Sequence record: MK327936.1 | Reading direction: 5' to 3' (one strand) | Source of the DNA: Escherichia phage vB_EcoM_G2540 | DNA: 64,000 nt | The notes under the pieces: model-generated | The model's input: only the letters and a program-made list of their open reading frames with translations | Database searches by the model: none | Told to the model about the DNA's origin: nothing | Part shown: positions 55,886 to 64,000 of the stretch, in pieces | Numbering within the stretch: the stretch's first letter is position 1 | Layout of the letters: the number at the start of each line of letters is the position of its first letter | Program-made: the position numbers and the translations under genes

Positions 55886-57943
55886 CTACATTTTGAACTT
55901 TTTAGACATTCCGTTGATGTTAACCAAAGAAGCTAATATTTGAGAAACTTCGTTTTCCTCTTCTTTTGATTCTTCTACAAGGAATTGATTAAATCCAGCC
56001 ATTGGACGAACTTCACCAGTTTCCATTAAATGGTCGCCATCATATACTGATTCTTCTAATTGTTCAGAAGGAGGAACGATTGTACCTTCGATTAGATACT
56101 TGTTATAAGCAGTTTCTTTCATAAAGTACGTACTTACTTTATTAATCTTTAGTAAAATTCCGCGCGGTAGAATAACTTCAGCTTCTGATGGAAATCCTGA
56201 TAAATGACCTGGAACGATAACTTTGATTCGCTCAGCTCCTTTAATTACCATACCCACGCTAGTTTCAGCATCTTCATTAGCATATGTAGAATGACTACCC
56301 ATATGCATCAAATCTTCTGCATCAACGGAATCTTCTCCTTCACCAGAAAATACTGCGCCGGAATCATCTAGAGCCATATAGTTTTTACCATGCTCACCGA
56401 AGATATTTGGTTTAAGCGATGTGGATACGAAGTTCTTGAAATAAAACATTTTATTTTCAATGTTATGACGCAAAGTTTTAAAGGTAACTTCTTGTCCACG
56501 GTAAAGCGTAGTTCCTGGAGGAAGAACTGAACCTTTAGCGAATGCAGAATCCAACGTCTCGATGTGCTTAATAGCACGTTCCATATATTCTTCACGGGTA
56601 GAATCTGGTTTACCCAAAAGGAACGAGTTCATTTCAACATATGAATCAGCACAATAATCTTCAATTACGTCAGATTCAGCCTGAGTTAATCCTTTTGGAG
56701 TTACTTCGGTGCTTGCGTATTCATACGCCTGGGCGGCAGATTCATTAATCAATTTATAAATGCCATTCATGACGAATTGAATAATAGCTGTCTTTTCATC
56801 TGGCGTGGCTTTAGAACCTTTAACTAAATCATTAATAATTTTCTTAATAACATCAAAGCTATTAGAAATATTAATGTCAGCAAGATCGCTTAAAATTTTA
56901 TCAGTTTTATAATCAAAGAATTCTTTATTCTTTAAATATTCTTGAGAACCTTGATATGTTATATCGCTCTGCAGCTTGATAGATGGATCACGTAAACGCG
57001 CATGGGCCAATGCGATATGATTTCGGAAGTTTTCTAGTTCATAATCGCTAGATTTAAAACGAGAAGCACTCCTCATACCACCAATAGCTCCTTTGCTGAA
57101 GTTTGAACCAATCTGAATAACGCCAGAGTTCATTGGTCCTTCTGCTTTATACACCGGAACTTTAAATTCAAACTCTTGATATTTCTTAGCAGCGAAGCTA
57201 TCACCCTGAAGTGAAGCATCGACAGTAGAATATTGAGCTTGTGCTGCTAATCGACGACTGATTTTAGTTTTCTGAATAACAGCTTGGTCCGTGCGTTTAT
57301 CATTTTCTAAAGCAATAGAAGCAGCAACAGCGACAGCTTTAGGAACAGCATTTCCTGTTTTAACGTCTACATAAACATCACCGACCTTTGATTCAACTTT
57401 TGTGAATAACTCAGTTGAAATAGGAGGTACACCTGGAATGTCTTCTAAATTGGCATTTTTACGGTAAACCATAATATATGCGTACTTTTTATCGTAATCC
57501 CAGATTTCCTTTAAAAGAACATATCGACCTGCTCCTTTAGTACGTACTAAACGGTCAGCAATAACTTGCATTTGACGAGCAGCGCCATTTGTTTTACTCT
57601 TTAGTACGCGAAATAAGCATGCATCAATTTTATACTGTTTCATTGTTTGAAGAGCAGTATCAAAAACAGCATTAATGACGCCAATTGGATTTCCACCCAA
57701 GTTTTTAAGCTTAACTAACGATAATTTCTCGTTGACACCTATCATTACGATATGCATCATTTTATCGCCTGGCTTAACGTTTTTATTCGTATCACCGCCA
57801 GAGGTGTATGTACAAAATCTAAATCCAGGAAGCACGCTTTCTTCACCGGCTTGAATAGCAAAAATTTGTGGTATTTTATGCTTAGGATTTAAGTTAACAA
57901 CCGGCGCCGAAGCGCCGTCAAATAATTCTGTAATAAGTTCCAT
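55886..57943 (-). CDS. Alt-like ADP-ribosyltransferase paralog (second copy, downstream of alt)
   Basis: 685 aa; N-terminal 230 aa closely similar to the adjacent Alt ORF (MELITELFD...CTYTSGGDTN...); C-terminal ART-type R-S-E signature (LYRGQ, FVSTSL, EAEVILPRG). Confidence 0.85.
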   Translation of the reverse strand: MELITELFDGASAPVVNLNPKHKIPQIFAIQAGEESVLPGFRFCTYTSGGDTNKNVKPGDKMMHIVMIGVNEKLSLVKLKNLGGNPIGVINAVFDTALQTMKQYKIDACLFRVLKSKTNGAARQMQVIADRLVRTKGAGRYVLLKEIWDYDKKYAYIMVYRKNANLEDIPGVPPISTELFTKVESKVGDVYVDVKTGNAVPKAVAVAASIALENDKRTDQAVIQKTKISRRLAAQAQYSTVDASLQGDSFAAKKYQEFEFKVPVYKAEGPMNSGVIQIGSNFSKGAIGGMRSASRFKSSDYELENFRNHIALAHARLRDPSIKLQSDITYQGSQEYLKNKEFFDYKTDKILSDLADINISNSFDVIKKIINDLVKGSKATPDEKTAIIQFVMNGIYKLINESAAQAYEYASTEVTPKGLTQAESDVIEDYCADSYVEMNSFLLGKPDSTREEYMERAIKHIETLDSAFAKGSVLPPGTTLYRGQEVTFKTLRHNIENKMFYFKNFVSTSLKPNIFGEHGKNYMALDDSGAVFSGEGEDSVDAEDLMHMGSHSTYANEDAETSVGMVIKGAERIKVIVPGHLSGFPSEAEVILPRGILLKINKVSTYFMKETAYNKYLIEGTIVPPSEQLEESVYDGDHLMETGEVRPMAGFNQFLVEESKEEENEVSQILASLVNINGMSKKFKM

Positions 57944-57946
57944 GAT

Positions 57947-60043
57947 TTATCCTTGAACGAACTTGTAAGGCATGTTTGTAATATCTATGCAAGACGCAAT
58001 AATTCCAAGAGATGATTCTACTTTCTGTTTAACGTTTGATGAAACAAATGATGCAAAGTCAACTCTGTCTTCTATTTCAATATCACCTGTCATTGCAACC
58101 AATTCACCAGTTTCCATTAAATGGTCTCCATCATAGATTACCGATTCGGTGAGCTCTTCCGTGGTCATAACTTCAGCTTGAATGAGTTTTGTATTATTAG
58201 ATGTTGTTCCGTCATTATTAGAAGCATCAGTTATTTTATTAACTTTGACCATCAATCCACGCGGTAGAATAACTTCAGCTTCTGTTGCTATTCCGAGACT
58301 TCCTGGATATACAACATTAACTTTATGAGCTCCATCAATTGCCCATCCTATTTGAACTTTAACGTATTCAGGATTTTCTTTATACGCTCTTATTTCGTTT
58401 GGATTAATAGTTATTCCTTCTTCATTTTTATCAACTGTTAATTCATTGCGAGCTTCTGGTTCTAAAAGACCAATACCAGCATGTGTAATTCCAAAACGTC
58501 CAAAAATGATAGGAGTTAAAGAAGTAGATACAAAATTTCTGAAGTAGAACACTTTATTTTTAACTAACGCTTCATATATAGGAGCAGTCATACTTTGAGC
58601 ACGATAAACTGTAATGCCTTCTGGTATACGGTCACCATTTTCAAAAGCTGAATCTAAGTTATTTATAGCAGATTCAATTTCTTTTTCACTCATTACATCA
58701 TATCGTTCTGGATTGTAACGACCTAAAAGAAGATTATTGATGTCAGTATATCCTGAACCGCAATATTCTCTAATGCCACGCTTTTGTGATGGAGTATATT
58801 TAGAACCATCGCGGGCAATAGTAATATCAATCATTGGACCAGCACCAATTCCAGAAAAACTGTAAATCATTCGTTTGAGGAATTTAGTTTTTGCTGCGTT
58901 CCAGGAATTTTTAGTTATTTCTTCCCAGACTTCATCTGGTTGTCCTTTACGATTTTTATTATGATTAGCAAGCCATTTATCTTTATAATCTTCAAAGAAT
59001 TGATTTACAGCTGCTGCGTATTTCTCTAAACATTTTATTGAAGTAGTTGGTTCATTTTTAATTGCATTAAAAATTACTTCTTTAATTTTTTCTGAAACTT
59101 CACCGACTTGACTCATTGGAAAGAATTTATAATCATAGTGAAGTTCATCTGCCGTTCCTTCAGCAATAATTTTTGCTGCCTTTGTTTTAGAAGCTAATGA
59201 ATTAATTCCAATTTTCATTTCTTCTGCTTCGGGAATTAAAGGTGCAGTAGCTGGTTTATTAAAATTAGCTGCTGTAGATTCATACTTCTGGAATAATTCA
59301 CTTTCAAATCTAGAAGATTCCAATGACTGACTTTGTGCAATTGCTCTACGGGAAATTTTAACTTTAACGATTACGGCTTGGTCAGAACGTTTATCATTTT
59401 CTTGTGCAATTGATGCTGCAATTGCCTCATTTTTAGTTACTTGGGCTCCAGTATCTTTATTGATATAAACATCACCAACCTTCGATTCAACCTTAGTAAA
59501 GAGTTCAGTACTAATTTCTGGAACTCCTGGAATGTCTTCTAGTGATACGTTTTTACGATGTATAAGAATATATGCATACTTTTTATCGTAATCCCAGAGT
59601 TCCTTAAGAAGGACGTATCTGCCACCTGAACGACTACGGATAAGTCTATCAGCAATAAGTTGAATTTGTCGAGCTTGACCGGCGGTTTTAGACTTAAGAA
59701 TGCGTAGCATACATGCATCAATTTTATACTGTTTCATTGTTTGCATTGCTACGGTAAATACTGAATTGATGTAATTAATAGGACTCGGTCCAAGACCCTT
59801 TAATTTAGCAATTGACCCCTTTGCAGTTAATGTAAAAGGAACGATATGCATCATTTTATCGCCCATTTTTAAATCGCGATTAGTATCACCTCCAGATGTA
59901 TAGGTACATAAACGAAAGCCTGGTTGTTCAATTGCATCATCAACATGAACTGAAAAAATTTGTGGTATTTTCTTCTTTGGATTTAAGTTTGTAATCGGAA
60001 GAGTAGTATCTTCGTCAAATAATTCTGTAATGAGTTCCATCAT
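57947..60043 (-). CDS. alt: Alt, capsid-packaged ADP-ribosyltransferase
   Basis: 698 aa; begins MELITELFDEDTTLPITNL; ART R-S-E signature (VYRAQ, FVSTSL, EAEVILPRG). Confidence 0.9.
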   Translation of the reverse strand: MMELITELFDEDTTLPITNLNPKKKIPQIFSVHVDDAIEQPGFRLCTYTSGGDTNRDLKMGDKMMHIVPFTLTAKGSIAKLKGLGPSPINYINSVFTVAMQTMKQYKIDACMLRILKSKTAGQARQIQLIADRLIRSRSGGRYVLLKELWDYDKKYAYILIHRKNVSLEDIPGVPEISTELFTKVESKVGDVYINKDTGAQVTKNEAIAASIAQENDKRSDQAVIVKVKISRRAIAQSQSLESSRFESELFQKYESTAANFNKPATAPLIPEAEEMKIGINSLASKTKAAKIIAEGTADELHYDYKFFPMSQVGEVSEKIKEVIFNAIKNEPTTSIKCLEKYAAAVNQFFEDYKDKWLANHNKNRKGQPDEVWEEITKNSWNAAKTKFLKRMIYSFSGIGAGPMIDITIARDGSKYTPSQKRGIREYCGSGYTDINNLLLGRYNPERYDVMSEKEIESAINNLDSAFENGDRIPEGITVYRAQSMTAPIYEALVKNKVFYFRNFVSTSLTPIIFGRFGITHAGIGLLEPEARNELTVDKNEEGITINPNEIRAYKENPEYVKVQIGWAIDGAHKVNVVYPGSLGIATEAEVILPRGLMVKVNKITDASNNDGTTSNNTKLIQAEVMTTEELTESVIYDGDHLMETGELVAMTGDIEIEDRVDFASFVSSNVKQKVESSLGIIASCIDITNMPYKFVQG

Positions 60044-60063
60044 ATCCTCTCTAGTGTTTATTC

Positions 60064-60095
60064 TATTTATAAAATTAAAGGCCCGAAGGCCTTTA
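60064..60095 (-). promoter_or_regulatory. Terminator hairpin (GGCCCGAAGGCC) followed by late promoter TATAAATA (plus 60064-60071 rc) upstream of alt
   Basis: Palindrome aaaggcccgaaggccttt overlapping stop of upstream ORF; TATAAATA on minus strand about 20 nt upstream of the alt ATG. Confidence 0.55.
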
Positions 60096-60281
60096 ATAAT
60101 CTATTGGTAAGAGAGTACGATATATTTCAAACTTTGGACCTTTTTCATAGGCATCAAATGTTTCTGTGAATTTATTATAAGCATATGCATCTATAAATTC
60201 AATCATGATTTGTGATACAGAAGTAGAAACATCTCCACCTTCTTTTTGAGCCACGACAATTGTTTCTAAGTAAGCTTTCAT
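60093..60281 (-). CDS. Hypothetical small protein
   Basis: 62 aa ORF, ATGA overlap with gene 30 stop. Confidence 0.5.
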   Translation of the reverse strand: MKAYLETIVVAQKEGGDVSTSVSQIMIEFIDAYAYNKFTETFDAYEKGPKFEIYRTLLPIDY

Positions 60282-61741
60282 AAACCAGTTACCTCATGAA
60301 AATCACCAAATACATCCTCGAATGTATTAGCTTTAGTTTTATCTTCACGTAAACGAATCGCAATCGGAAGAAATAATTTAACGTAATCAGTGCGGCCATC
60401 AGATTTTAACCAACCGTTGCATTCGCACTCTAGAATTTTTCCAATATAATAATTTTGATTTTCCATAATGCGAGTACGATCAAGTTCATGCGATTTTACA
60501 CCGGCTTTATCTTTTAAGCCTGAACCAGCATTTACTTTAATTTTTCCACACTCTGATTCAAGAATGAAACCACCTGCTTTAGTAGGGTCTTTACGGTGAG
60601 GATAAATTCCTACAATTTTTAAATCAACATCAATTACTTCTTTAAATTTATAAAGATTTTTTGAACGAGCATTTTCCCATAATCCATCGATATTTTTGAG
60701 AATAATACCTTCAAGACCTTGGTCAATATACTTTTTGTAAATTACCTTAGCTTCATCTAGGTTATTTACTACTTGGTTTTCAATTAAAATTACTTTATCA
60801 TAGCCTGATGTCATTTGTTCTAGTTTAGAAAAACGTACATCATATTTTAAACGAAATGCTGGAAGACCATATATTTCTACTAATGGAACATAATCCCAGA
60901 CCTGAAACTTCATGCATTGTGCTTCTTTTTCAGAAATGGTTCCCTTTAAAGATTTATTGGCGATGCCATTAGATGCAGTACGTGATTCAGCTACTTCGGC
61001 GAATTCTTTAGCTTTACTAATTTCAGGATAAGCATCAAAAAGAAAATCTAGGCCTTCTGGTTCCTTTTCAACTTGCTCATGGTATACCAATTCGCCATCA
61101 ATTAACACACCTTCTGGATGAATCTGGCGGGCTTCAGCAGTCATTTTGATTAACTCTTCCTTAAGAAGATCTAATCCTAGATATTCATTGCCAGCTCGTG
61201 ATAAAAGACGAACATCATCTAATTCATCACCTCTGACTTCGGCAAAGCACCGAGCTCCATCAGCTTTTAACTGGGCAAAGGCTGGAAATTTGATATTCTT
61301 ATTAATGCCTTTTTCATCATAAGAACTTGCAAGCATTTGAGGTTGTTCAGGAATTAAACCTGGCCAAACTTTGTTCGCAATAGATACTGAAGCGCCACAT
61401 TCAAGGTCTCGCATCATCACTCGACGCAAAACTTCAACATCATCTTTTTTACCATCGGTGATGTATCCAATTAATTCCTCAATCGCCGCATTTCCAGTCA
61501 ATTTCCGAGTAGCTAACGTGAATTCAATGAAGTCAAGCATATCGGTAAGAGTCAACATTCCAAAACTCTGGGTAGCAATACCAGGTTTAGGCCATTTCTT
61601 GATATAATACTGTAACCCACGAGAATAAGTCAGACGATATACTCGTTTAAGCAATTCATTATCTTTATTCTTTTCAAGAATTGCTTGCTTCTGCTTAGTT
61701 GAACCAATAGATGCTATTTCGTTCAGAATTTTAAGAATCAT
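60278..61741 (-). CDS. 30: gp30 ATP-dependent DNA ligase
   Basis: 487 aa; adenylation motif KADGAR (motif I), T4 DNA ligase-like sequence throughout. Confidence 0.95.
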   Translation of the reverse strand: MILKILNEIASIGSTKQKQAILEKNKDNELLKRVYRLTYSRGLQYYIKKWPKPGIATQSFGMLTLTDMLDFIEFTLATRKLTGNAAIEELIGYITDGKKDDVEVLRRVMMRDLECGASVSIANKVWPGLIPEQPQMLASSYDEKGINKNIKFPAFAQLKADGARCFAEVRGDELDDVRLLSRAGNEYLGLDLLKEELIKMTAEARQIHPEGVLIDGELVYHEQVEKEPEGLDFLFDAYPEISKAKEFAEVAESRTASNGIANKSLKGTISEKEAQCMKFQVWDYVPLVEIYGLPAFRLKYDVRFSKLEQMTSGYDKVILIENQVVNNLDEAKVIYKKYIDQGLEGIILKNIDGLWENARSKNLYKFKEVIDVDLKIVGIYPHRKDPTKAGGFILESECGKIKVNAGSGLKDKAGVKSHELDRTRIMENQNYYIGKILECECNGWLKSDGRTDYVKLFLPIAIRLREDKTKANTFEDVFGDFHEVTGL

Positions 61742-62007
61742 TGTTCATCCTTTAGAGTTTGGTTTACAGCTCTATTATAAATCAATTCATCATTAAGCTC
61801 AGTCAAAGACCTGTGGTACGTTGTTCTAACTTTATTTCCTTGCATCCAGTGCTTGACGTAAATGAAACCTTGCTCTACACATTTTTTAAAAATTCGTTCG
61901 TCTTTTTGAGCTCGGAATTCTGGATTGCATCTAAAAAATTGATTTACGTGACCGTAATCACGTGTAGTATTACCTTCATTTTCATAAATAGTGTGAACGA
62001 CAAACAT
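61738..62007 (-). CDS. Hypothetical protein (30.1-like)
   Basis: 89 aa ORF. Confidence 0.55.
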   Translation of the reverse strand: MFVVHTIYENEGNTTRDYGHVNQFFRCNPEFRAQKDERIFKKCVEQGFIYVKHWMQGNKVRTTYHRSLTELNDELIYNRAVNQTLKDEQ

Positions 62008-62861
62008 TAGAATGCTCCTTGGAAAATATTATCACCACTACCACTAGTAAGTCTATTAAAATACCCTGCATCGCCAGGCTTAATATAACTCCACGTATGG
62101 AATGGATGCATCTGGTGTGAGTGCGTATAATATGGATGATATGGATTATAAGGATTAAATCCAGGAGTTCTCCAGGTAGTGTTCCAAGGAAAAGAATCGT
62201 TTTTGATCATCTTCTCGATTGCATCTTTTATAGCTTTTTCACTATCAAAACTTTCTTTATTTTCCTTCGGTGAAAAAAGCTTATTCTCTACATCATTCCA
62301 TGTATAAACTCGCTGAGCAGTTTTTGGAATACTGTCACGCTCCCCTCGAGCCATCCAATAAACAGGAACACTTAATATTTCACTCGCATGATCGCAGTGG
62401 TGAGCGAGATCGTCGATATAACAAATTACGTTATATTTCTCTTTTGCCTTTTTGAACAACTCTTCTTTTGAAGAATCATGACCACACATCAATACTTCTG
62501 AGAAGGCACCAGGAAAAAGAGCATTCAAATTAAATTGACGATTCAACAAAGCATCAATAGAATCACCCAATGCTGTAACAGCTACAAAATTATAATCTTC
62601 TTTTAATTTGTTAATTACACACAGGGCATCTTTATATGGAGACAAATAGCGAATAAAATCTGAACGATTATACTTTTCGATTAATTTAACACCGAGTTCT
62701 TCATCGCAATTAAAGAGCTTACCAGGAGAAATAAATTTTTCGTCCTGAATCATTTTTAAAATATGTTCTAATGGAAGATTATATTTTTGGGCAAAATAAG
62801 GAAGACCTGATTGCCAGCTTAAACATACTCCATCAATATCAGTTAAAATAGTAGGCTTCAT
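62007..62861 (-). CDS. HAD-superfamily hydrolase-like protein with aromatic/Pro/His-rich C-terminal tail (30.2-like)
   Basis: 284 aa; N-terminal motif I ILTDIDGV and later YIDD; C-terminal PGFNPYNPYHPYYTHSHQMHPFH low-complexity region. Confidence 0.6.
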   Translation of the reverse strand: MKPTILTDIDGVCLSWQSGLPYFAQKYNLPLEHILKMIQDEKFISPGKLFNCDEELGVKLIEKYNRSDFIRYLSPYKDALCVINKLKEDYNFVAVTALGDSIDALLNRQFNLNALFPGAFSEVLMCGHDSSKEELFKKAKEKYNVICYIDDLAHHCDHASEILSVPVYWMARGERDSIPKTAQRVYTWNDVENKLFSPKENKESFDSEKAIKDAIEKMIKNDSFPWNTTWRTPGFNPYNPYHPYYTHSHQMHPFHTWSYIKPGDAGYFNRLTSGSGDNIFQGAF

Positions 62862-63322
62862 AGAGAGTCTCTTAATAGGTTTAACACATCAATAAATTCA
62901 GCTTCGGTTAGTATTGTATCATCTTTTGTTAGACCACTAGCCATGCTGTGCTTCAAAACTTTTCCTTTCGAGGCTTGTAATGCATCGCGAAAGCCCCTAT
63001 TTTGGATCGCTGCTTCAAAATATGCATTTGTGTATAATTCTTTCCACGCTGGGGAGTATCTTGAAAATGGAACTCCAAGCCAGAAGAGGGTCCCACGGTC
63101 CTGAGCTCTAGCATAAGACCTTCCAGCTTGTTGGGCGGCAAGCCCAGATAACCCAAATATACGACGTTGTTGTTCAACGTTTTTCACCTTGCATCCTTGG
63201 AGGAATCCTTCAAGACCTCCAAATTGAATACCATCCATAACGAAAGGCCAATGGGCGAAATTACTTAATGCGCATGATGGCCACCTAAAATTGCTTCTAA
63301 TCTCTAACTCAGACATTTTCAA
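62858..63322 (-). CDS. YbiA/NADAR (DUF1768)-like protein (30.3-like)
   Basis: 154 aa; signature LSNFAHWPFVMDGIQFGGLEGFLQGCK resembling the YbiA SNFAxWP...DG...E.YFQAxK core. Confidence 0.6.
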   Translation of the reverse strand: MKMSELEIRSNFRWPSCALSNFAHWPFVMDGIQFGGLEGFLQGCKVKNVEQQRRIFGLSGLAAQQAGRSYARAQDRGTLFWLGVPFSRYSPAWKELYTNAYFEAAIQNRGFRDALQASKGKVLKHSMASGLTKDDTILTEAEFIDVLNLLRDSL

Positions 63323-63498
63323 TGCTTATAATTTCAACATCAGCCCAATGACCATAGCAAGGAAGACGAAATTCAACTGGCCATCTAATATAATAGACTC
63401 AACTTGTGGTTCTTCGTGTTCATCAGTATACGGATTTTTATCTGTTACTTTATATGTGACCTTAATGTACTGAATTCCAAAAATCTTATTAATTATAT

Positions 63499-63696
63499 TC
63501 ATACTAATTCCTTTAATCCGTAGATAGGAGATAATTCATCGCCCATATGAAGGTCTTCATTTCCATCTACCCAAGAAACAATATAAGCCTCTTTTACTTG
63601 AACGTCTCCCAATTTAAATGCGGGTAAAACCTTAGAAATTAATCCAGGTATACCAACTCCCTTTAATTCAACAGTTTGACCTAAAAAGAATTTCAT
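63499..63696 (-). CDS. Hypothetical protein
   Basis: 65 aa ORF. Confidence 0.45.
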   Translation of the reverse strand: MKFFLGQTVELKGVGIPGLISKVLPAFKLGDVQVKEAYIVSWVDGNEDLHMGDELSPIYGLKELV

Positions 63697-63983
63697 TAAA
63701 ACCTCATCTGAAAACCGTGCGATTTAACATTACCGCCATTAATATCAGAACTATTAATTTCACGTGCAATTGAGGGATCAATGTCAATTTCGCGATTGAG
63801 TTTAGTGATAGCTAAAGTATCGCGCCCATTTACAGTACGGAACTCTAAAGGGCAGACTACATTAACGTAGTTTTTAATCGATTCACTGGTAGGTTGCAAA
63901 TGTGCAGGAAGGTCTTTAGGCGCCTTTGAGAAAACTACTTCGCAGAAGTTTTTACGGGTATCAAAATAAGTAGTCATAAACAT
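63696..63983 (-). CDS. Hypothetical protein
   Basis: 95 aa ORF with GAGGAA SD upstream. Confidence 0.5.
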   Translation of the reverse strand: MFMTTYFDTRKNFCEVVFSKAPKDLPAHLQPTSESIKNYVNVVCPLEFRTVNGRDTLAITKLNREIDIDPSIAREINSSDINGGNVKSHGFQMRF

Positions 63984-64000
63984 AACATTTCCTCAGTAAG

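What the first reader, a model, noticed from the sequence alone, without database searches (positions are those of the whole stretch)
61738..63322. YbiA/NADAR-like and HAD-like genes next to DNA ligase and the Alt ADP-ribosyltransferases
The 154-aa ORF (62858..63322) has the YbiA/DUF1768 core signature (LSNFAHWPF..DG...E.FLQ..K). This family (NADAR) includes enzymes acting on ADP-ribose-linked substrates, including reversal of nucleic-acid ADP-ribosylation. The neighbouring 284-aa ORF has HAD phosphatase motifs (LTDIDGV, YIDD) plus an unusual Tyr/Pro/His-rich tail. Together with two injected ARTs and DNA ligase within 8 kb, this looks like a locus concentrating ADP-ribosylation writers and possible erasers, which could counter host ADP-ribosylating defence toxins or tune the phage's own ARTs. 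The functional link is inferred from family membership and proximity only.
Basis: inference. Interest (0 to 1): 0.55.

Follow-up and report, generated by a model that had tools for sequence, protein, structure and literature searches.

The report
Phage AdfN eraser and HAD phosphatase
The NADAR-like gene is the T4 anti-defence enzyme AdfN, already shown to strip ADP-ribose from phage DNA; its HAD-like neighbour is an uncharacterised nucleotidase-type phosphatase that travels with DNA ligase, not with AdfN, so the region is ordinary.

Summary
The window comes from a T4-like coliphage, closest to vB_EcoM_G2133. The flagged ORFs are the orthologues of T4 genes 30.3, 30.2 and 30.1.

- **gp30.3:** 149/152 residues are identical to T4 AdfN. 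AdfN is a NADAR-superfamily DNA ADP-ribosylglycohydrolase, shown by genetics and biochemistry in 2023-2025 to remove DarT1-made ADP-ribose from guanine and to defeat DarTG1. The catalytic E36 and K43, the phage-clade H123 and the C-terminal helix are all intact.
- **gp30.1 (DUF3045):** no recognisable fold.

The proposed writer/eraser locus is not supported. Of 79 gp30.2 loci, 71 have DNA ligase just downstream, but only 22 have AdfN adjacent. Only 19 of 80 AdfN-family loci have gp30.2 nearby. In published T4 transposon sequencing under DarTG1, only 30.3 is strongly depleted (log2FC -7.25); 30.4 upstream is mildly depleted (-1.79). Genes 30.2, 30.1 and alt show no effect.

Verdict: known biology, low novelty.

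The parts
62858..63316 (-). adfN (T4 gene 30.3 orthologue), 152 aa: a NADAR-superfamily DNA ADP-ribosylglycohydrolase. Codons: E36 at 63209-63211, K43 at 63188-63190, H123 at 62948-62950.
   Evidence: PF08010, E = 1.7e-69. 149/152 identical to T4 gp30.3. E36, K43 and H123 are present. The family profile hits the YbiA structure 2b3w at E = 0.003, and 5 of 40 family members hit Pfam NADAR. Function was shown for T4 AdfN in PMC11825919 and PMC11125620.
62262..62861 (-). gp30.2 residues 1-200: HAD phosphatase core with a C1 helical cap. Motif I is D8/D10, motif II T96, motif III K132, motif IV D150/D151.
62010..62189 (-). gp30.2 residues 225-284: a disordered tail rich in Pro, Tyr, His, Trp and Phe.
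   Evidence: pLDDT is below 50 for residues 244-284. 43% of residues are P/Y/H/W/F. It differs from T4 by in-frame indels. About half of the family has such a tail, and many lineages carry a G-I-E-Y-L-x-x-Q-P-T motif that is degraded in this phage.
61738..62007 (-). gp30.1 orthologue, 89 aa, DUF3045; function unknown.
60278..61741 (-). Gene 30, ATP-dependent DNA ligase: the conserved downstream neighbour of gp30.2. Its start overlaps the 30.1 stop (ATGA).
   Evidence: Ligase lies downstream on the same strand in 71 of 79 gp30.2 loci.
57947..60043 (-). Alt ADP-ribosyltransferase (698 aa). Context only, not functionally tied to the finding.
   Evidence: 71% identical to T4 Alt. The termini are nearly identical and the middle has diverged.
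55886..57943 (-). Second, full-length Alt paralogue (685 aa). Context only.
   Evidence: 41% identical to T4 Alt. At this position T4 keeps only the remnants alt.-1 and alt.-2.
63326..63502 (-). Gene 30.4, directly upstream of adfN. In this window it is frameshifted by a 13-bp deletion.
   Evidence: Alignment with G2133 and T4.

Best explanation
The region is the promoter-distal end of the T4-type early gene string 30.4-30.3-30.2-30.1-30. The genes are packed with overlapping stops and starts: ATGA at 62858-62861, TAATG at 62007, ATGA at 61738-61741.

1. **Gene 30.3 is adfN.** It encodes a stand-alone NADAR enzyme that hydrolyses the N-glycosidic bond between ADP-ribose and guanine in DNA. This undoes the modification written by the host DarT1 toxin, so the phage can replicate in DarTG1-carrying cells. 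The activity is shown for T4 and inferred here from 98% identity with all catalytic residues kept. Confidence about 0.95.
2. **Gene 30.2 is a Mg2+-dependent HAD phosphatase of the NT5C-like branch.** A roughly 70-residue helical cap closes over the active site. This points to a small-molecule substrate, most likely a (deoxy)nucleoside monophosphate, rather than a DNA end. Its disordered tail probably docks it to a partner protein. The fold and motifs are shown; the substrate and the role of the tail are inferred. Confidence about 0.55 for a nucleotide substrate.
3. **Gene 30.1 is a small protein of unknown fold.**
4. **The three genes are neighbours by T4 synteny, not one pathway.** gp30.2's conserved partner is DNA ligase, AdfN moves independently, and only adfN matters for DarTG1 resistance. 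Confidence about 0.8.
For: **AdfN identity**
-. One search shows E36, G37, F38, Q40 and H123 invariant and K43 nearly invariant. add the profile and residue checks.
- Published function: T4 delta-adfN becomes DarTG1-sensitive. E36A and K43A impair rescue. Purified AdfN removes ADP-ribose from DarT1-modified DNA. The RB69 allele, truncated by 15 residues, is defective.
- T4 gp30.3 removes ADP-ribose from guanosine in vitro, and a His replaces the catalytic Glu in the phage clade.
- in T4 Tn-seq under DarTG1, 30.3 has log2FC -7.25, padj 0.

**gp30.2**
- The motif residues are conserved.
- The AF2 core is confident, with helices 16-86 forming a cap between motifs I and II.
- The family profile hits cdN 2jao at E = 0.047, with invariant W16 aligned to the Phe that follows motif I in cdN.
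- The family has 1428 cluster representatives. Of 55 distant members, 33 hit Pfam NT5C, best E = 4e-10. Their profile hits 3bwv at 2.4e-6 and mdN at 1.4e-3. hhalign between the two profiles gives probability 100%, E = 3e-53.
- Precedent: phage PBS1 dTMP phosphatase belongs to PF06941 (PMC12697855).

**Independence of the genes**
- AdfN is located elsewhere in the same genomes.
- Tn-seq neutrality of 30.2, 30.1 and alt under DarTG1. Gene 30.2 is also neutral in LB, M9 and RnlAB conditions.
Against: - No substrate has been tested for any gp30.2 family member, and no paper in the library mentions gp30.2.
- The near-universal linkage to DNA ligase could reflect a DNA-end function rather than a nucleotide-pool function.
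- The loci counted are related phages, not independent samples. AdfN is still adjacent to or near gp30.2 in several genera (37 of 79 within 1.3 kb), so an ancestral association cannot be excluded.
- Tn-seq neutrality of 30.2 was measured in T4 on K-12 with one DarTG1 allele. AdfN does need an unidentified T-even factor for full activity outside infection.
Confidence: 0.8

Rival explanations
1. gp30.2 is the missing T-even helper of AdfN. It would either process the released ADP-ribose or its breakdown products, or stabilise or localise AdfN. On this view 30.3 and 30.2 form a two-gene anti-DarT module.
For: - The stop of adfN overlaps the start of 30.2 (ATGA), and the pair is adjacent in 22 of 79 loci across several genera.
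- AdfN works fully only during T-even infection, and its authors propose an unidentified phage factor.
- gp30.2 has a tail that looks like a docking peptide.
Against: - T4 Tn-seq under DarTG1: 30.2 has log2FC -0.12 (p = 0.61), against -7.25 for 30.3.
- gp30.2 occurs without a nearby AdfN in about half of its loci, and 61 of 80 AdfN loci lack gp30.2.
- In several genomes the two genes are 55-60 kb apart.
Confidence: 0.05
2. gp30.2 is a polynucleotide 3'-phosphatase, an end-healing enzyme like the HAD domain of T4 Pnkp or eukaryotic PNKP. It would prepare nicks for the DNA ligase encoded just downstream.
For: - Ligase lies directly downstream on the same strand in 71 of 79 loci, 60 of them within 300 bp.
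- There is a weak PHROG hit to a polynucleotide kinase family (E = 0.0038).
Against: - gp30.2 has a large C1 helical cap (residues about 16-86). Established knowledge of the HAD superfamily is that capped members act on small molecules, while Pnkp-type members that act on polymers are capless.
- The phage already encodes Pnkp.
- Distant family members occur in T4-like genomes with no adjacent ligase.
- Gene order within one virus family is weak evidence for function.
Confidence: 0.12
3. The three genes plus the two Alt enzymes form a locus dedicated to ADP-ribosylation. In it AdfN also erases or tunes modifications written by the phage's own transferases.
For: - The genes lie within 8 kb of one another.
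- NADARs of T4-like phages are co-expressed early with the transferases (PMC9503650).
Against: - Alt, ModA and ModB are known from established T4 literature to modify arginine in proteins. The demonstrated AdfN substrate is N-glycosidically linked ADP-ribosyl-guanine in DNA, and it does not act on thymidine-linked ADP-ribose.
- alt insertions are neutral under DarTG1.
- The AdfN position relative to this region is not conserved.
- The intervening genes are a ligase and a nucleotidase-like phosphatase, with no ADP-ribose-related signature.
Confidence: 0.04

Closest known systems
T4 AdfN (gp30.3), anti-DarT factor NADAR (Johannesman et al. 2025, PMC11825919; in vitro activity in PMC11125620)
   Same: 149/152 residues are identical. 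The length, E36, K43, H123 and C-terminal helix are the same, as is the position between 30.4 and 30.2.
   Different: There are three substitutions (Q22H, K107R, I124M), none at a reported catalytic residue. The upstream gene 30.4 is frameshifted in this window, so its stop no longer overlaps the adfN start.
DarG1 NADAR antitoxin of DarTG1 (BC4488 family) and E. coli YbiA (2b3w)
   Same: They share the NADAR core signature SNF...DG...E.F.Q..K. The family profile matches YbiA over this core at E = 0.003.
   Different: The phage clade lacks the DarG1 N-terminal extension. It has His where YbiA has Glu and DarG1 has Asp in the last strand. It cannot replace DarG1 in uninfected cells. YbiA is a housekeeping riboflavin-intermediate N-glycosidase.
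5'(3')-deoxyribonucleotidases: human and mouse cdN and mdN, S. epidermidis 3bwv (Pfam NT5C, PF06941)
   Different: Identity is only 15-21%. The window protein itself is below the Pfam threshold. The cap carries its own invariant WQSGLPYF and YN.SDFIRYL signatures. A 60-90-residue disordered tail is added. The substrate is untested.
Bacillus phage PBS1 dTMP phosphatase Dtm (PF06941; PMC12697855)
   Same: It is a phage-encoded NT5C-family HAD enzyme that edits the nucleotide pool.
   Different: PBS1 uses it to exclude thymine from dU-DNA. T4-type phages have no known need for this, and no sequence comparison with Dtm was made here.
T4 polynucleotide kinase/phosphatase (Pnkp), HAD 3'-phosphatase domain
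   Different: Pnkp's phosphatase is capless and acts on polynucleotide ends. gp30.2 has a large cap.

Membership tests
Phage gp30.3/AdfN clade of the NADAR superfamily | Significant match to the Pfam Phage_30_3 model (PF08010) | tested here: met
   E = 1.7e-69, 232 bits against a cut-off of 36, over the full model length.
Phage gp30.3/AdfN clade of the NADAR superfamily | Homology to the wider NADAR/YbiA family (PF08719) | tested here: met
   The profile of 40 family members hits the YbiA structure 2b3w at E = 0.003 across the SNF...DG...E.F.Q..K core. Five of 40 members hit Pfam NADAR on their own, best E = 1.5e-7. The window protein alone does not.
Phage gp30.3/AdfN clade of the NADAR superfamily | Catalytic Glu and Lys (E36 and K43 in T4 AdfN) contacting ADP-ribose | tested here: met
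   Both are present at the same positions. E36 is invariant and K43 is at least 90% conserved in 40 homologues.
Phage gp30.3/AdfN clade of the NADAR superfamily | Histidine in the last strand in place of the Glu (YbiA) or Asp (DarG1) (PMC11125620) | tested here: met
   H123 is present and invariant in the alignment.
Phage gp30.3/AdfN clade of the NADAR superfamily | Intact C-terminal helix (the RB69 allele lacking 15 residues is defective) | tested here: met
   Full length of 152 aa, with the C terminus identical to T4.
Phage gp30.3/AdfN clade of the NADAR superfamily | NADAR three-dimensional fold | not tested
Phage gp30.3/AdfN clade of the NADAR superfamily | Hydrolysis of ADP-ribosyl-guanine in DNA, and DarTG1 counter-defence | not testable with these tools
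   Shown for T4 AdfN and inferred here from identity.
HAD (haloacid dehalogenase-like) phosphatase superfamily | Motif I DxDx(T/V) with the nucleophile Asp | tested here: met
   D8-I-D10-G-V. D8, D10 and G11 are invariant in 45 homologues.
HAD (haloacid dehalogenase-like) phosphatase superfamily | Motif II Ser/Thr, motif III Lys, and motif IV acidic pair | tested here: met
   T96 is at least 90% conserved, K132 is invariant, and D150/D151 are at least 90% conserved.
HAD (haloacid dehalogenase-like) phosphatase superfamily | Rossmann-like HAD fold | tested here: met
5'(3')-deoxyribonucleotidase family (Pfam NT5C, PF06941) | Match to the family model above its threshold | tested here: not met
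   The window protein gives no Pfam hit at E <= 0.1. It is linked only transitively: 33 of 55 distant relatives hit PF06941, and hhalign between the two profiles gives 100% probability.
5'(3')-deoxyribonucleotidase family (Pfam NT5C, PF06941) | C1 helical cap with an aromatic residue after motif I that stacks on the base (recalled from cdN/mdN structures) | tested here: inconclusive
   The cap is present (helices 16-86). Invariant W16 aligns with the Phe of DGVLADF in cdN 2jao. The other specificity residues were not mapped and no ligand modelling was done.
5'(3')-deoxyribonucleotidase family (Pfam NT5C, PF06941) | dNMP phosphatase activity | not testable with these tools
   No biochemical data exist for any gp30.2 homologue.
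Pnkp-type polynucleotide 3'-phosphatase | Capless (C0) HAD core giving access to polymer ends | tested here: not met
   About 70 residues forming five helices are inserted between motifs I and II.

The most novel reading that the evidence does not exclude
gp30.2 defines a large, unstudied, phage-centred branch of NT5C-like HAD nucleotidases, with about 1400 cluster representatives. The branch is anciently coupled to the T4-type DNA ligase. On this reading its variable aromatic/proline tail, with the recurrent G-I-E-Y-L-x-x-Q-P-T peptide, tethers it to a replication or repair partner. There it would remove a specific nucleotide, for example a ligation by-product, a non-canonical dNMP, or a nucleotide used by a host defence. 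That would be a new accessory activity of the T4 replisome.
Probability: 0.12. Interest if true: 0.45.

Novelty: already known. Interest (0 to 1): 0.17.

Why it matters
That idea is correct and important, but it was published for exactly this gene (T4 30.3, AdfN) in 2023-2025, so nothing new follows from this window.

What remains open is modest. gp30.2 is a conserved, ligase-linked, nucleotidase-like HAD enzyme with no known substrate and no phenotype in the T4 transposon screens so far. gp30.1 has no recognisable fold. The T-even factor that AdfN needs for full activity is still unidentified, and the evidence here argues that it is not gp30.2.

Tried and rejected
- **gp30.2 as the AdfN helper.** Rejected on synteny and on T4 Tn-seq under DarTG1.
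- **Direct family assignment of gp30.2.** Pfam and NCBIfam gave nothing. PHROGs gave only an unnamed family (phrog_420) and a weak polynucleotide-kinase hit.
- **Single-sequence search of AdfN against PDB.** It found only a chance hit. The link to YbiA needed a family profile.
- **Fusion partners of distant gp30.2 relatives.** P0265, P0329, P0216 and P0254 were scanned for clues, but the extra regions have no Pfam match.
- **Literature on gp30.2.** No paper contains 'gp30.2'. Broader searches returned only numeric coincidences. The Petrov 2010 T4 core-genome review does not mention 30.1-30.3.
- **Promoter and terminator scan of 59900-64000.** It found no more sites than shuffled sequence gives.
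- **gp30.2 tail difference from T4.** A frameshift was considered, but the difference is in-frame indels of 15, 3 and 6 nt plus substitutions.
Full report
**Identity of the region.**
The 1585 bases are 100% identical to Escherichia phage vB_EcoM_G2133 (Tequatrovirus) and 90-97% identical to hundreds of T4-like genomes. The gene order matches T4: 54, alt.-3, alt, alt.1, 30 (DNA ligase), 30.1, 30.2, 30.3, 30.4 and onward, all on the minus strand of the window. The three ORFs in the finding are the orthologues of T4 gp30.3 (149/152 identical), gp30.2 (93%) and gp30.1 (88/89). Their stops and starts overlap, at ATGA, TAATG and ATGA. A consensus scan found no more promoter-like or terminator-like sites than shuffled sequence gives. 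They therefore appear to be one tightly packed gene string running into the ligase gene.

**The NADAR-like gene.**
- The ORF matches Pfam Phage_30_3 at E = 1.7e-69. The annotated ATG at 63316 gives 152 aa and the published residue numbering.
Five members hit Pfam NADAR on their own.
- T4 gp30.3 has been characterised. It removes ADP-ribose from guanosine in DNA in vitro. It belongs to a phage clade in which a His replaces the catalytic Glu or Asp of other NADARs (PMC11125620).
- It has been named AdfN. Deleting it makes T4 sensitive to DarTG1. Expressing it rescues RB69, whose own allele is truncated by 15 residues. E36A and K43A impair rescue, and the purified enzyme removes ADP-ribose from DarT1-modified DNA (PMC11825919).
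- An independent T4 transposon screen found 30.3 insertions lost under DarTG1, with log2FC -7.25 (bioRxiv 10.1101/2025.11.20.689424).
- The window protein keeps E36, K43, H123 and the full C terminus. I therefore take it to be a functional AdfN.

**The HAD-like gene.**
- In 45 homologues the four HAD motifs are invariant or nearly so: D8/D10, T96, K132 and D150/D151.
- An AlphaFold model built on this alignment is confident for residues 1 to about 200 and disordered from about 228 onward.
- By sequence, the family profile touches cdN 2jao only marginally (E = 0.047). In that alignment the invariant W16 sits at the position of the Phe that follows motif I.
- An exhaustive profile search found 1428 cluster representatives. 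Of 55 distant ones, 33 match Pfam NT5C. Their profile hits 3bwv at 2.4e-6 and mdN at 1.4e-3, and it aligns to the gp30.2 profile at 100% probability.
- I conclude that gp30.2 is an active HAD phosphatase on the NT5C-like branch. It is not a demonstrated member of PF06941.
- The five-helix cap between motifs I and II argues for a small-molecule substrate, from established knowledge of the HAD superfamily. A (deoxy)nucleoside monophosphate is the best guess. Phage PBS1 has an NT5C-family dTMP phosphatase as precedent.

**The tail.**
- The last 60 residues are 43% P/Y/H/W/F. They differ from T4 by in-frame indels.
- About half of the family has such a tail. Many lineages share a short G-I-E-Y-L-x-x-Q-P-T peptide near the end, which is degraded in this phage. 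A docking function is plausible but untested.

**Is this a functional locus?**
- I fetched 79 loci around gp30.2 homologues and 80 around AdfN homologues from viral contigs and searched them with family profiles.
- DNA ligase lies downstream on the same strand in 71 of 79 gp30.2 loci, 60 of them within 300 bp.
- AdfN is adjacent in 22 of the 79 gp30.2 loci and within 1.3 kb in 37. gp30.1 is found in 24.
- Conversely, only 19 of 80 AdfN loci contain gp30.2.
- Several T4-like genomes carry AdfN 55-60 kb from gp30.2. AdfN relatives also occur in contigs of 250-420 kb with no gp30.2 within 6 kb on either side.
- These loci are not phylogenetically independent, but the pattern is clear. gp30.2 travels with ligase, and AdfN moves on its own.
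- In the T4 Tn-seq data, 30.1, 30.2 and 30.3 are all non-essential on K-12.
- Under DarTG1, 30.2 (-0.12), 30.1 (-0.01), alt (-0.01) and 61.2 (-0.34) are neutral. Gene 30.3 is lost, and 30.4 just upstream is mildly depleted (-1.79, padj 0.014). The 30.4 effect is most simply a polar or coupling effect on adfN.
- Gene 30.2 is also neutral in M9 versus LB and with RnlAB.
- So gp30.2 is not the unidentified T-even factor that AdfN needs, and Alt plays no part in DarTG1 resistance.

**gp30.1.**

**Verdict.**
The NADAR and HAD assignments are correct. The idea of an integrated writer/eraser locus is not supported. The only open item is the substrate and role of the ligase-linked gp30.2 phosphatase.

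Noticed in passing
window 63326-63502 (-); deletion between 63384 and 63383: Relative to both the G2133 record and T4, the window lacks 13 bp inside gene 30.4. This frameshifts its 3' end, giving 58 aa instead of 68 aa. The stop now lies 10 nt before the adfN ATG instead of overlapping it (ATGTCTGA). In T4 Tn-seq, 30.4 insertions are mildly depleted under DarTG1 (log2FC -1.79), so 30.4 translation may influence adfN expression. The window phage is therefore a close relative of G2133, not the same sequence.
   Followed up: partly
window 55886-57943 and 57947-60043 (-): There are two full-length Alt-type ADP-ribosyltransferases in tandem. One is 71% identical to T4 Alt, with nearly identical N and C termini but a diverged central and catalytic part. 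The other is 41% identical. T4 keeps only the remnants alt.-1 and alt.-2 of the second copy.
   Followed up: partly
window 62953-63177 (-): A 74-aa ORF in another frame lies inside adfN. It corresponds to the ORF that the T4 record annotates as 30.3' (internal translation in a different frame). Whether it is expressed was not examined.
   Followed up: no
window 62010-62189 (-); homologues P0001-P0100 and loci L003-L081: The disordered tail of gp30.2 is highly variable between lineages. At least three recurrent C-terminal peptides appear: GIEYL..QPT(A/S), DY.LLNKVTANDS and SYRN.KP.DLRAYYG. T4 has GGIEYLYNRPT, while the window has GDAGYFNRLTSG.
   Followed up: partly
P0014 (302 aa): One gp30.2 homologue carries a DUF3045 (gp30.1) domain at its C terminus. 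This suggests a 30.2-30.1 fusion or read-through in some phage. The contig is short (1.4 kb) and it was not checked for assembly error.
   Followed up: no
P0104-P0107, P0113, P0117, P0120; L014 5636-6004: Many AdfN homologues in public data are shortened or split (83-126 aa). This suggests that AdfN has been inactivated repeatedly, as reported for RB69. Phage UGJNEcP4 has a 91-aa AdfN fragment next to a tail-less 212-aa gp30.2.
   Followed up: no
L100 5908-7756; L097, L107, L115, L119, L154, L157: AdfN-family genes occur in very large viral contigs (250-420 kb) with no gp30.2 within 6 kb on either side. In L100 an AdfN homologue sits directly upstream of a 435-aa ligase-like ORF with no HAD gene between them.
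   Followed up: no
L076 2539-8662: A distant gp30.2 homologue (36% identity) in a T4-like metagenomic contig sits among PhoH, a PD-(D/E)XK nuclease, a patatin-like phospholipase, gp33 and gp59, with no ligase nearby.
   Followed up: partly
P0265 (591 aa), P0329 (660 aa), P0216 (430 aa), P0254 (365 aa): Some gp30.2-family proteins are fused to long N- or C-terminal regions that have no Pfam match.
   Followed up: partly
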